DNA of 64,000 bases, from assembly GCA_040876925.1 (NCBI GenBank), contig JBBDOS010000003.1:61207-125206 (forward strand), written 5' to 3'. The DNA is from Candidatus Saccharimonadales bacterium (GTDB lineage: Bacteria; Patescibacteriota; Saccharimonadia; QS-5-54-17). The position numbers were made by a program. Within the stretch, counting starts at the first letter, position 1. Every line of letters starts with the position of its first letter. This document shows, piece after piece, positions 27,001 through 30,000 of the stretch.

Positions 27001-30000
27001 CTAATATCCGGTATTATTATCTCTTTGCCGTTTAGAAATATTAATAACCAAATCAATAACTCGGTAACTTTTCAGACTATCAATCAAGTCATGCCGCCAG
27101 CACCAGTAATGATAGATCGGATCAGTGCTATGATAGGAGACTCTCAACTATCAGAAGTGCTATTTGGTGCACCGCTTAGGCCGGTAGAAATTGCTGAAAT
27201 ACCATCTGATGAAAAGGTTTTAGCGGTAGTAGAATATGCCAGTGATTCTACAGTCAGGATTGAGAGTACTGTCTGTAAGGATATTATGACTGGTAGTGGT
27301 TTTGTAGTAGCTGATAACTTAATAGCCACTAACGCTCATGTAGTAGCTGGCAATAACAATCCTCAGGTGATAGATTTAAACGGCCGTAGAGCAGGTGAAG
27401 TGATTTACTTTGATGCTGATTTAGACCTAGCTTTTGTTCGTGCAGATAATCTAGCTGGGAACCCGCTAGAGACTAGTAGAGATACTCACTCTAGAGGAGC
27501 AACTGCAGCTATATTAGGCTACCCCGGTGGAGAAAGACTACAAGCAGAACCAGCCTACATATCACGAGACATACAAGCTAGAGGTTTGAATATCTATAGA
27601 GAAAAATTAGCCACTCGTCATATGTATGAACTACAAACTAGTATCACTACCGGATATTCAGGTGGCCCATTAGTACTGCCTACAGGTGAAGTAATCGGCA
27701 TGGTTACCGCTAGATCAGAAACTGAAGAAGATGTTGGTTACGCTATCTTAACCAAAGCCATTAATGATAGCTTAAAACGTTCTCAAGCCATGCCATATAC
27801 TATCGATGCTGGGGAGTGTATATAGAGTAAATTCTACTTATTTGACAAAATTGCTACTTATTGCATAGATATGATATATTTAGCTTATGAGTGTGGTGGA
27901 TATATCTATACTATTTGTTTGTCTATTGATAGCTATCGTCTATGGAAAAAGCAAACATTCTAATGAGCTGCTTAATATAGCCTTGTTTTGGCTATTAGTA
28001 TTAGTAGCTACTGTTTTGCTGCCGGTTATATTTACTGGCAATTACTTAATCCAGTTAATAGTTTTCTTTAGTCTATCGGCACTACTACTGAATATGTCTA
28101 GACTAGAGAGACTGTTGCAATCGATTACTGATAGAGCAACTAAACACATTAAATACGGCGATAGATTAATTAAAGTCACCAGCTCCACCTTTATAGTCTT
28201 AGCTGCTACTTGGATCATAGTAGGTGCGCTATTTACGGCTCCAATTAATTCTAGCCCTTTAAGTCAAAGTAGCTCATTTCTAGCTAATGTATTTAATAAT
28301 GCTCATATAGATACTGTCGATGCTAAGTATTTAGAAGACTGGCAAAGAGAAAACCAGCATATATCAACAGCTATAGACTCAGTTGTCAGAATAGAATCTC
28401 CTGGCTGTGGCGGATTACGCTATGGCAGTGGTTTTGTAATAGCAAAAAATACTATCATGACCAACGCCCATGTAGTAGCTGGTATTAAAAACCCGGTTAT
28501 TAGAGCTACTGATGGTAGCTTCTATCAAGGAAGAGTAGTCTATTTCGATATCGATAATGATATCGCCATATTATCTACTGAAGATCTAGGGCTTAAACCC
28601 CTAACTATTGCTAACTCTAACCACCCGCACCAAGAAAGCTCTGCAGTAGCTATTGGCTACCCAGATGGTAAGACACTAAAGGTTGGTGAGATAGGTATGG
28701 TTAGACCGATTAGTTTCTATGATAGTGATATCTATAATCACCGATTAATCAAACACGACCGATACGAGATGCAGGTAGCTATTAGCCCTGGTAATTCTGG
28801 TAGTCCAGTAATTATGCCAAGTGGTGAAGTTATAGGGATGATTGATGCTACATCTGATATCTACTACGACGTAGGTTACGCGGTTACAGCAGCATCGATT
28901 AATAAAGTCCTGGATACGTATCAAGATATAGCTTCAGATCAAGAGTTAAACCCTGTTAATTCAACTTGTATATAAAGGATCTTTAAGGAGTTTTATACAG
29001 ATTAGATAAACAGTGGTGTTAGTGTAGCCAGCACAAAGAGTATCACCACCACTATCATCACTACATCTCTCTTGCGCATCTTATTCTTATTCATACTCCT
29101 ACTATCATAACGTAAAACCGCCTAAGCTCTCAAGGCAACCATCAATTACAATAAATTATGATTAGCTTAAGAACTCAGAGCTGGGGAGGGTGTTTGTTTT
29201 GTGACATGGTTAGTCAACAAACACTTCCCTCCCCAGCGAGAAACAAGTTTGTAGATCAGGTGATGATCAATATACTGGTTCCGCAACGAATACTTGGAAC
29301 CTCATCATCGCCAATCAGCGAGAAGACCCTGTCGTGAAAACGACAGAATCCATCATCAGTGATAGCGTTGCGAACACACCTGAGTCCGAGACAGCGCCCC
29401 ATCGCCAGCGGATCGTGAAGTTCTAGACGATACCCATAATCATCAAGAACCTCGGAAGGCTCACCATAGACAAAGTTATCTATAGCTATAGGACTCGACC
29501 CCTCAGTGGGCAACAGATACTCCACGAGAACGTCATGTACTCGCCCATCATCCTCGAGGCGAGGATTTGGAATTGCAATCCAGTTATCGCCGTTAAGCGA
29601 AAACTCGAACGCAAGATCCCGACCTAGCAGCAATGCACTTGGGCAGTTGGTAATGAAATACTCCAACGTCCCCTTCCATATCGGAGTCGGTGCGATCGAA
29701 TCGGAGTTAAACTCCATTACGCGAAAGAACATTACTCTCCCCTTCATGCTCACTAATGGCTCCCTGCCACTAGGTCCCAAAATACTAATAAAGCTAAAGT
29801 ACTCTAAGATCTAGCGGCAGAGATATGTATCTACAAACTTATATCTTATAAAGAACCCTCATAAAAGCAGTTTAAAACTACCCTTAAAAGCTGGATAAAC
29901 GATACCATATTGTTTATAGTCGGTCAATTAATTTTTGGAGTTTTTAGATTATTAAAAAAGTTGCTAAATAAGTATTTACAAAACTATGTAAAAGTGGTAC

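What the first reader, a model, noticed from the sequence alone, without database searches (positions are those of the whole stretch)
29181..29780. ~0.6-kb compositional island: ~50% GC orphan ORF bounded by a long GGGGAGGG/CCCTCCCC stem-loop
The 29256-29780 ORF has roughly 50% GC (counted over two 100-nt blocks) against ~38-40% in flanking genes, and uses GC-rich codons the neighbours avoid. Its product has no recognizable domain and a Cys-containing C-terminus. A ~18-bp GC-rich imperfect inverted repeat lies 20 nt past its stop without a U-tract, so it could be a recombination or insertion scar rather than a simple terminator. This is a candidate recent horizontal acquisition, possibly from a high-GC donor, of unknown function such as an immunity, toxin or defense gene.
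Basis: seen in the sequence. Interest (0 to 1): 0.7.

Follow-up and report, generated by a model that had tools for sequence, protein, structure and literature searches.

The report
GC-rich orphan gene in Saccharibacteria
A small, real, fast-evolving gene of unknown function with foreign-looking codon usage sits with its own promoter and a strong terminator-like hairpin in a replaceable slot of a Saccharibacteria (TM7) chromosome; it is an ordinary kind of lineage-specific accessory gene, not a new type of system.

Summary
A minus-strand ORF (best start ATG 29732, 158 aa, 29256-29732) has 49% GC against 41.2 +/- 1.7% for 46 other ORFs. The excess is all at third codon positions (GC3 0.51 vs 0.34). 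A 58-nt hairpin (29180-29237, -38 kcal/mol, z -5.3) lies 18 nt past the stop and has no U-tract.

The window is a Candidatus Saccharimonadales chromosome. The ORF is a real gene: a 52%-identical homologue in a sister lineage gives omega 0.28, and 0.14 in the C-terminal 70 residues. Only these two alleles exist in 1.84 billion representative proteins. The one domain hint is a sub-threshold DUF5763-like C-x4-C-x10-C-x2-H motif.

The cassette is present in two strains and a sister lineage with the same odd composition. In a more distant syntenic relative an unrelated singleton orphan on the other strand occupies the slot. Horizontal acquisition is therefore plausible but not recent, and no donor or mobility gene was found.

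The hairpin and the long 5' leader are far more conserved than synonymous sites. I read them as functional (terminator/insulator, regulatory leader), not as an insertion scar. Protein function is unresolved; I saw no evidence for toxin, immunity or defence.

Aside: about 48960-49485 (+) is a candidate unclassified ~525-nt structured RNA.

The parts
29140..30127 (-). Variable segment (about 990 bp): everything between the stop of the conserved 209-aa membrane protein gene (30128-30757) and the promoter of the conserved 30-aa peptide gene. In relative L031 about 640 bp of unrelated DNA lies here.
   Evidence: tblastn synteny. L031 sequence and ORFs. Three-way alignment: homology to L031 resumes only at CTTGAGAGC, about 29136.
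29899..29927 (-). Promoter-like site TTGACC-17-TATCGT with TG extension, preceded by an A/T-rich stretch. Conserved in L002 (TTGACC...TATTGT).
   Evidence: Consensus scan and alignment A2. No transcript data; inferred.
29761..29823 (-). Long imperfect hairpin (about 26 bp) in the predicted ~160-nt 5' leader.
   Evidence: strand folding on the leader: z -2.9. In the two-sequence consensus fold, 5 one-sided changes all keep pairing, none breaks a pair and there are no double compensatory changes. The upstream non-coding region is 84% identical to L002, against 64% for the ORF.
29737..29742 (-). Shine-Dalgarno GGGGAG, 4 nt before ATG 29732.
   Evidence: Sequence. Conserved as AAAGGGAAAG in L002.
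29256..29732 (-). Coding sequence, 158 aa, acidic (pI 4.4), no signal peptide or transmembrane segment. GC 0.493, GC3 0.513.
   Evidence: Homologue P0002 (158 aa, 52% identical, E 2e-45) aligns from residue 1. dN/dS is 0.28. Composition; pI. NCBI annotates only an 85-aa fragment (MEX0668261.1); other callers give 153 or 165 aa.
29259..29468 (-). Conserved C-terminal module (residues 89-158): YGEPxEVLDDxGYRLELxDPL...RCLGxRCxRNAITxDGFCxFHDRVFxLxGDDEVPSxxCGTxIxII.
   Evidence: Alignment A1. omega is 0.14 here against 0.38 for residues 1-88.
29334..29393 (-). C114-x4-C119-x10-C130-x2-H133 motif, a putative zinc site. C150 is also invariant.
   Evidence: Invariant in both alleles. DUF5763 PF19067 scores 18-21 bits, E 2e-4 to 2e-3, below the 26.3-bit cut-off, matching profile positions 11-36 of 39. 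A weak match at the same residues to NF045806. Zinc binding is inferred.
29180..29237 (-). 58-nt imperfect hairpin: an 11-bp G/C-rich basal stem, an internal loop, an 8-bp TGTTTGTT/AACAAACA stem and a GAC-TAACCAT-GTC tip. It sits 18 nt after the stop and about 45 nt upstream of the next promoter. No U-tract.
   Evidence: strongest post-gene hairpin in the window. Conserved in L002 with an invariant base and tip. Identical in strain variant L093. Absent in L031.
29002..29094 (-). Neighbouring conserved 30-aa gene (MNKNKMRKRDVVMIVVVILFVLATLTPLFI; basic N-terminus plus one hydrophobic helix) with its own promoter-like site at 29104-29133. It marks the edge of the slot and is not part of the cassette.
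   Evidence: 87% and 77% aa identity in L002 and L031. Not annotated in NCBI and not in the protein collection.

Best explanation
This is a self-contained, monocistronic accessory-gene cassette in a replaceable slot of a Candidatus Saccharimonadales chromosome. It has a sigma-70-like promoter, a structured leader of about 160 nt, a 158-aa cytoplasmic acidic protein, and a strong hairpin without a U-tract.

The gene probably entered from a source with GC-richer codon usage, after the split from the L031 lineage and before the split of the two lineages that carry it. It has since evolved fast. The N-terminal two thirds are under relaxed constraint. The C-terminal 70 residues, with a C-x4-C-x10-C-x2-H putative zinc site, are under clear purifying selection.

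I read the hairpin as the 3' end of the transcript. It would act as a terminator and RNA-stabilising stem, and as an insulator that keeps read-through out of the promoter of the co-directional 30-aa peptide gene about 45 nt downstream. It could also stop antisense transcription coming from the convergent protease gene.

For the protein, my committed guess is a small zinc-dependent binding or regulatory factor. The conserved C-terminal module would be the working part, contacting nucleic acid or a partner protein. The variable N-terminal domain would give lineage-specific specificity.

Shown: real coding gene, atypical synonymous composition, restricted distribution, slot polymorphism, conservation of the hairpin and leader. 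Inferred: foreign origin, terminator/insulator role, zinc binding, binding or regulatory function.
For: - Coding: the homologue P0002 (E 2e-45) matches over the full length. omega is 0.28 overall and 0.14 in the C-terminal part.
- Composition: GC3 z 4.2 with normal GC1 and GC2. Both alleles avoid the TTA codon the genome prefers, and the window allele also lacks AGA.
- Distribution: only two alleles in 5.8e9 clusters and 1.84e9 representatives. None in GTDB species representatives, IMG/VR, phages or plasmids.
- Present at the same locus in the window strain, a 99% strain variant and a sister lineage.
- Slot polymorphism: L031 carries a different singleton orphan there.
- Constraint on non-coding parts: 11-16% divergence, against 34-47% at synonymous sites of six housekeeping genes in an 87%-identical sister MAG.
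- Hairpin strength and position; promoter sites.
- Zinc motif: invariant C/C/C/H and reproducible sub-threshold DUF5763 hits.
- HGT and genomic islands are documented in Patescibacteria (PMC12455944 abstract).
Against: - No donor, mobility gene, tRNA or flanking repeat was found, so foreign origin rests on composition and distribution alone.
- GC3 is still 0.51-0.58 in both alleles after dS of about 1.3. That is awkward for simple amelioration and leaves room for selection on composition.
- The hairpin lacks the U-tract that other terminators in this window have, and there are no 3'-end data.
- The divergence calibration assumes that L002 belongs to the same lineage as sister MAG L092. This is unproven.
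- Structure prediction failed (pLDDT 38-41), and the DUF5763 score is below Pfam's cut-off. The functional guess has little direct support; I put about 0.2 on 'zinc-dependent binding/regulatory factor' specifically.
Confidence: 0.6

Rival explanations
1. Native, not foreign. On this reading the gene arose or has long resided in this lineage. Its GC-rich third positions would be kept by selection, for example for mRNA structure or stability or for slow translation, rather than inherited from a donor.
For: Both alleles keep high GC3 (0.51 and 0.58) despite dS of about 1.3. The window allele's mRNA folds unusually well (z -4.6 to -4.8, against +1.2 to -2.2 for 16 control coding segments). No donor was found anywhere.
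Against: The sister allele's mRNA is not unusually structured (z -1.2), so no conserved RNA structure explains the GC3. The gene is absent from the syntenic slot in L031 and from all other Saccharibacteria loci examined. Avoidance of the genome's favourite codons in both alleles looks like a foreign codon dialect.
Confidence: 0.2
2. The hairpin would be a DNA-level recombination or insertion site (attC-like, REP/MITE-like, or the end of a mobile element) that delivered the gene. The gene itself would be a toxin, immunity or anti-phage defence gene.
For: The hairpin lies within about 40 nt of the edge of the variable segment, is long and imperfect, and lacks a U-tract. The slot is evidently exchangeable. 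The N-terminal domain evolves fast (dN 0.60), as in arms-race genes. Assemblies tend to break around the locus.
Against: The hairpin is a single copy in 64 kb. No related hairpin turned up in IMG/VR or JGI metagenomes beyond chance palindromes. The arms read GTT...AAC, the reverse of the attC R''/R' order AAC...GTT (sequence plus my knowledge of attC). There is no integrase, transposase or direct repeat. The cassette carries its own promoter, unlike integron cassettes. There are no PADLOC, PHROGs or NCBIfam hits and no operon partner. omega stays below 1 throughout.
Confidence: 0.12
3. The GC-rich stretch would be primarily a structured non-coding RNA, as GC-rich islands in AT-rich genomes often are. 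The ORF would then be incidental.
For: The window allele folds with z -4.8 on the gene strand and -3.7 on the other strand. The other GC peak of the window (about 49 kb) does look like a structured RNA.
Against: The reading frame is kept over 158 codons in both alleles at only 64% nucleotide identity. Substitutions are concentrated at third positions in the C-terminal part (pS 0.56 against pN 0.13). The folding excess is not shared by the sister allele. Rfam gave no match.
Confidence: 0.04

Closest known systems
Individually transferred genes and small genomic islets in Patescibacteria/CPR genomes (Gios et al. 2025, PMC12455944); ORFans in variable chromosomal slots
   Same: A lineage-restricted gene with atypical composition, between conserved syntenic core genes. 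The slot holds different content in a related genome.
   Different: It is a single gene of about 1 kb with no mobility genes, tRNA or repeats, and no identifiable donor. It is already old enough to have two alleles only 52% identical.
Pfam DUF5763 (PF19067), a short Cys/His motif family of unknown function
   Same: Both alleles match profile positions 11-36 of 39 at the same residues (G-x-R-C-x-R-N-A-I-T-x-D-G-F-C-x-F-H). The Cys, Cys and His are invariant.
   Different: The scores (18-21 bits) are below the 26.3-bit gathering threshold. The first ten profile positions are not matched, and the first Cys sits only four residues before the second. The family has no known function in any case, and the held library has no literature on it.
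Rho-independent (intrinsic) terminators, including the 'I-shaped' hairpins without a U-tract described for high-GC Actinobacteria (from my own knowledge, not tested here)
   Same: A strong GC-rich stem-loop just downstream of a stop codon, at the end of a transcription unit and ahead of the next promoter.
   Different: At 58 nt with internal loops it is much longer than the 8-13-bp stems of the canonical terminators in this window. It has no U-tract. Termination was not measured.
Integron gene cassettes with attC sites
   Same: An ORF followed closely by an imperfect inverted repeat of about 60 bp, in a slot whose content differs between genomes.
   Different: The order of the core-site-like triplets is reversed. 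There is no integrase and no array of cassettes. The unit carries its own promoter and leader.

Membership tests
DUF5763 (PF19067) | Whole-protein score at or above Pfam's gathering threshold (26.3 bits) | tested here: not met
   18.0 and 19.7 bits for the full proteins, and 20.3 and 21.2 bits for the C-terminal 70 residues.
DUF5763 (PF19067) | Match over the whole 39-position profile, including its N-terminal part | tested here: not met
   Only profile positions 11-36 are aligned in both alleles.
Canonical intrinsic terminator | GC-rich stem-loop shortly after the stop codon | tested here: met
   It starts 18 nt after the stop, with -38 kcal/mol and z -5.3.
Canonical intrinsic terminator | U-tract directly after the stem (at least 5 T in 8) | tested here: not met
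   The tail is TCTGAGTT. The scan does not call it, while it calls T-tailed hairpins elsewhere in the stretch it covered; the clearest T-tailed terminators (e.g. after 57924-58622 and between 34696 and 34797) come from the post-gene hairpin survey.
Canonical intrinsic terminator | Transcripts end there | not testable with these tools
   There are no transcript data for this uncultured organism.
Horizontally acquired gene / genomic islet | Composition and codon usage deviate from the host genome at synonymous sites | tested here: met
   GC3 is 0.513 against 0.341 +/- 0.041. See also the codon table.
Horizontally acquired gene / genomic islet | Patchy presence among relatives at a conserved junction | tested here: met
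   Present in L001, L089, L093 and L002. Replaced by an unrelated ORF in syntenic L031.
Horizontally acquired gene / genomic islet | Identifiable donor lineage or closer homologue outside the clade | tested here: not met
   No homologue outside the two alleles in any collection searched.
Horizontally acquired gene / genomic islet | Mobility signatures (integrase or transposase, tRNA target, flanking direct repeats) | tested here: not met
   The neighbours are core genes. The only tRNA is 22 kb away. No boundary repeats.
Integron cassette / attC | R''(RYYYAAC)...R'(GTTRRRY) core sites in that order, plus an integron integrase nearby | tested here: not met
   The arms read TGTTTGTT...AACAAACA (GTT first). 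No integrase-like ORF among the neighbours scanned against Pfam.
Known anti-phage defence systems (PADLOC-DB) | Match to a defence-system protein model | tested here: not met
   0 families at E up to 10.
Toxin-antitoxin or toxin-immunity pair | Two adjacent co-transcribed genes that co-occur | tested here: not met
   The gene is monocistronic between its own promoter and the hairpin. The adjacent 30-aa gene has its own promoter and persists in L031 without the orphan.
REP/MITE-type repeated palindrome | Many copies per genome | tested here: inconclusive
   One copy in this 64-kb window. The rest of the genome was not available.

The most novel reading that the evidence does not exclude
The 158-aa protein would found a new family of small CCCH-type zinc proteins confined to one Saccharimonadales lineage. 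It would have been imported from the high-GC world these epibionts live on (actinobacterial hosts or their phages) and kept because it acts in host interaction or phage resistance. The fast-evolving N-terminal domain would be the specificity determinant. Together with the second GC-rich, lineage-specific insert of the window (the structured RNA candidate at about 49 kb), it would mark a class of GC-rich imports into an AT-rich reduced genome.
Probability: 0.12. Interest if true: 0.55.

Novelty: new member of a known kind. Interest (0 to 1): 0.3.

Why it matters
If the reading is right, this is one more documented case of a reduced Patescibacteria genome holding an exchangeable slot where lineage-specific orphan genes come and go. 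The case is unusually clean, with promoter, leader, gene and terminator all delimited, and with two alleles that show which half of the protein matters. That makes it a usable test case for gene gain in epibiotic bacteria, and it corrects the public annotation, which gives an 85-aa fragment. It opens no new mechanism, and the function remains unknown. The unclassified structured RNA candidate noticed at about 49 kb may be the more valuable lead from this window.

Tried and rejected
- Homology. phmmer of the protein against 1.84e9 representatives gave only P0002, plus two repeat-protein matches at E about 8e-4 that I treat as spurious. A word-indexed search with the protein and with the two-allele profile gave nothing new.
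- Family libraries and solved structures. Pfam, PADLOC, PHROGs, NCBIfam and PDB sequence searches gave only sub-threshold hits: DUF5763, a GvpO N-terminal model at the same residues, and one Vgb-lyase blade-like stretch at E 0.08-1.5.
- Plasmids. A tblastn hit on Xanthomonas plasmids (E 5e-3) proved to be an out-of-frame translation of virB2 and was rejected.
- Structure. AlphaFold2 on the single sequence and on the two-sequence alignment gave pLDDT 38.5 and 40.7. I therefore ran no fold search, since its matches would be meaningless.
- Genome and metagenome scans. The orphan was not found in GTDB representatives or IMG/VR. The neighbouring membrane protein was not found in JGI metagenomes.
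- Hairpin patterns. IMG/VR returned 7 unrelated GC-rich palindromes. JGI metagenomes returned one chance hit in 56%-GC DNA with no other similarity.
- Island DNA against phages and plasmids: no match.
- DGR idea (variable N-terminus). There is no second copy or template repeat in the window.
- A 15-nt inverted repeat (29832-29846 / 30018-30032) is not conserved in L002 and I take it as chance.
- A small + strand ORF (29905-30000, 31 aa) shows about 11 nucleotide changes giving 7 amino-acid changes in L002, so I do not treat it as coding.
- Remote relation between the orphan and L031's slot gene: hhalign probability 1%.
- Allele replacement by recombination, to explain an ORF more diverged than its flanks. 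After calibration against an 87%-identical sister MAG, the ORF's synonymous divergence is only about 1.4-fold (raw) above housekeeping genes. The flanks are simply more conserved than neutral sites, so replacement is not needed, though it is not excluded.
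Full report
**What is there**

The finding's ORF is on the minus strand. Its composition is a genuine outlier. The 29256-29780 stretch is 49.7% GC in a window of 40.6% (z 2.9 against all 525-nt windows; only 0.13% are as high). As a gene, at 0.493, it lies 4.7 sd above 46 other ORFs. The excess is confined to third codon positions: GC3 is 0.513 against 0.341 +/- 0.041, with normal GC1 and GC2. So it reflects codon choice, not amino-acid content. The window allele uses no TTA Leu and no AGA Arg, the genome's favourites, and is enriched in GGG, TCG and CTC/CTG.

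The inverted repeat is also real. GCTGGGGAGGG...CCCTCCCCAGC spans 29180-29237, 18 nt after the TGA stop. It folds to -38.2 kcal/mol (z -5.3, 0 of 200 shuffles) and occurs once in the window. It is the strongest hairpin behind any gene here. Unlike the short canonical terminators of this genome, it has no T-run.

**Whose genome**

DnaE (34797-38534) is 75-84% identical to Candidatus Saccharibacteria MAGs. Exact protein look-ups place the window in NCBI MAGs named Candidatus Saccharimonadales bacterium (MEX0668255-277). The neighbours are ordinary chromosomal genes: SpoU methylase, a CAP-domain protein, two CvpA/trypsin membrane proteases, a thermonuclease, a large Ig-repeat surface protein and DnaE. 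There is no integrase or transposase nearby, and the only tRNA is 22 kb away.

**Is it a gene**

Yes. HMMER against 1.84 billion representative proteins found one true relative, P0002 (158 aa, 52% identical, E 2e-45), aligned end to end from the internal ATG at 29732.

Its contig (L002, from the same sample series) is syntenic. It carries the same upstream non-coding region, the ORF, the hairpin, a 30-aa peptide gene and the end of the protease gene. In L002 the stretch upstream of that ATG is out of frame, and a Shine-Dalgarno site precedes the ATG in both sequences. The product is therefore 158 aa. It is not 174 aa, and it is not the 85 aa annotated at NCBI.

Nei-Gojobori estimates give dN 0.36, dS 1.28 and omega 0.28. 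Residues 1-88 have omega 0.38 (dN 0.60) and residues 89-158 have omega 0.14. Six housekeeping genes compared with an 87%-identical sister MAG (L092) give dS 0.45-0.73 and omega 0.03-0.13. The protein is therefore selected but evolves several-fold faster than core genes, especially in its N-terminal two thirds.

**What the protein looks like**

It is acidic (pI 4.4) and has no signal peptide or membrane segment by inspection. The conserved C-terminal block contains invariant C114-x4-C119-x10-C130-x2-H133 and C150. Both alleles match Pfam DUF5763 at exactly these residues, but below threshold (18-21 bits against 26.3). NCBIfam gives a weak match at the same place. DUF5763 has no known function, and the held library has no literature on it.

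PADLOC, PHROGs and PDB sequence searches gave nothing usable. AlphaFold2 failed (pLDDT 38-41), so I did not run fold searches.

**Distribution and the slot**

The cassette is present and identical in two samples (L001, L089). It is present in a 99%-identical strain variant with one amino-acid change and an unchanged hairpin (L093), and in the sister lineage (L002), where the gene is again GC-rich (0.52, GC3 0.58) between AT-rich flanks.

In L031, a GTDB-representative Saccharibacteria MAG with 84% DnaE identity, the whole neighbourhood is syntenic. There, however, the space between the membrane-protein gene and the 30-aa peptide gene holds an unrelated 189-aa ORF on the opposite strand, with normal GC and no hairpin. 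That ORF is itself a singleton in the protein collection.

No relative of the orphan exists in GTDB representatives, IMG/VR, phage or plasmid collections. The one apparent plasmid hit was an out-of-frame virB2 translation.

So this is an exchangeable slot with lineage-specific orphans. The GC-rich gene was gained, or the alternative was lost, after the split from the L031 lineage and before the split of the two carrier lineages. That supports 'acquired' and contradicts 'recent'.

**The non-coding parts are functional**

Between the window and L002, the 287-nt upstream region differs at 15.7% of sites. The region from the stop codon to the peptide gene start differs at 11%. The hairpin has 5 substitutions and 4 gap columns in 58 nt. 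Synonymous sites of housekeeping genes differ at 34-47%, giving P of about 5e-6 or less for each comparison. This calibration assumes that L002 belongs to the L092 lineage.

The hairpin's basal 10-bp stem and its GAC-TAACCAT-GTC tip are invariant, and the changes fall in the middle.

The predicted leader (promoter-like TTGACC-17-TATCGT at 29899-29927) contains a further hairpin of about 26 bp (29761-29823). Five one-sided changes there all preserve pairing. Rfam recognises nothing in the region.

A selectively maintained hairpin at the end of a transcription unit, about 45 nt before the promoter of a co-directional gene, fits a terminator/insulator and 3'-end stabiliser best. It does not fit a recombination scar. 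There is no second copy, no flanking repeat, no attC-like core order and no related hairpin in IMG/VR or JGI contigs.

**What stays open**

- Foreign origin rests on codon dialect and distribution only; no donor was found.
- GC3 remains high in both alleles after dS above 1. Either the ancestor was much GC-richer (at identical residues, 59 of 78 third positions are G/C in at least one allele), or something maintains GC3.
- The window allele's mRNA is oddly well folded (z about -4.7 against +1.2 to -2.2 for controls). The sister allele's is not (z -1.2), so I give this no functional weight.
- The function of the protein is a guess. I favour a zinc-dependent binding or regulatory factor, with about 0.2 on that specific reading. 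I found no positive evidence for toxin, immunity or defence roles.

**Verdict**

This is a new orphan family (two alleles) of a known kind: a lineage-specific, probably horizontally acquired accessory gene in a variable slot of a Patescibacteria genome. HGT of this sort is documented for the group (PMC12455944; PMC7427843). Interest is modest.

**Noticed in passing**

The only comparable GC peak of the window, at about 48.9-49.5 kb, has no ORF of 40 aa or more on the strand of the flanking genes, and only one 40-aa ORF inside it on the + strand. Its + strand folds with z -8.2, against -2.0 for the minus strand. It has a promoter-like site and a stem followed by a T-run, and it matches no Rfam family even at E up to 10.

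In three other Saccharibacteria genomes the flanking aldolase and kinase genes are adjacent, with only an estimated 45-90 nt between them. The 3' end of the element is 91% conserved in the sister MAG. It is a candidate new structured RNA of about 525 nt and deserves its own follow-up.

Noticed in passing
window 48960-49485 (+ strand); GC peak 48900-49560: Candidate unclassified structured RNA of about 525 nt. It is the other GC peak of the window (up to 60% GC). There is no ORF of 40 aa or more apart from one 40-aa stub. The + strand MFE is -211 kcal/mol with z -8.2 (minus strand z -2.0). It has a promoter-like TTGCAA-17-TAGTAT at 48924-48952 and a terminal stem followed by a T-run at 49475-49488. 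No Rfam family matches even at E up to 10, and ARAGORN finds no tmRNA. It lies antisense between class II aldolase and a PfkB kinase, which are adjacent (estimated 45-90 nt apart) in L027, L011 and L047, so it is a lineage-specific insert. Its 3' end is 91% identical in sister MAG L092 (5283-5337). Nothing similar in phages; the IMG/VR motif hits were collagen-repeat genes (chance)..
   Followed up: partly
window 29002-29094 (-), promoter-like site 29104-29133: Unannotated 30-aa gene (MNKNKMRKRDVVMIVVVILFVLATLTPLFI; basic N-terminus plus one hydrophobic helix). It is conserved in L002 (87% aa) and L031 (77% aa), with dN well below dS against L031 (0.13 against 0.70). Probably a small membrane protein. 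It is missing from the NCBI annotation and from the protein collection.
   Followed up: partly
L031 6424-6993 (-): The same slot in a related Saccharibacteria MAG (JBJHCT010000009.1) holds a different 189-aa orphan. It has no Pfam, PHROGs or NCBIfam match and no other member in the 5.8e9-cluster collection. The slot therefore seems to collect lineage-specific singletons.
   Followed up: partly
window 29256-29732 (-): The mRNA of the window allele folds much better than dinucleotide shuffles (z -4.6 to -4.8). Sixteen control coding segments give +1.2 to -2.2 and the sister allele gives -1.2. Unexplained.
   Followed up: partly
window 29975-30003 (+) and 30010-30127: A conserved promoter-like site on the + strand (TTTACA-17-TACTAT, TG-extended). 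It points away from the orphan and into the 3' end of the convergent 209-aa membrane protein gene, so an antisense or small transcript is possible. L002 ends here, so conservation further on could not be checked.
   Followed up: no
window 26650-27825 and 27887-28975 (+): Tandem paralogous membrane-anchored trypsin-like proteases; NCBI names the first a MarP family serine protease. The C-terminal tail of the second diverges fast between lineages (67% aa over the last 60 residues), and the spacer after it is not alignable.
   Followed up: no
L001, L002, L093, L092 and the contig of P0014: Short-read assemblies from several samples break at or next to both GC-rich islands: contigs of 1.3-2.6 kb around the orphan, a contig ending inside the RNA candidate, and another starting inside pfkB. 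This hints at strain heterogeneity or coverage and composition effects at these loci.
   Followed up: no
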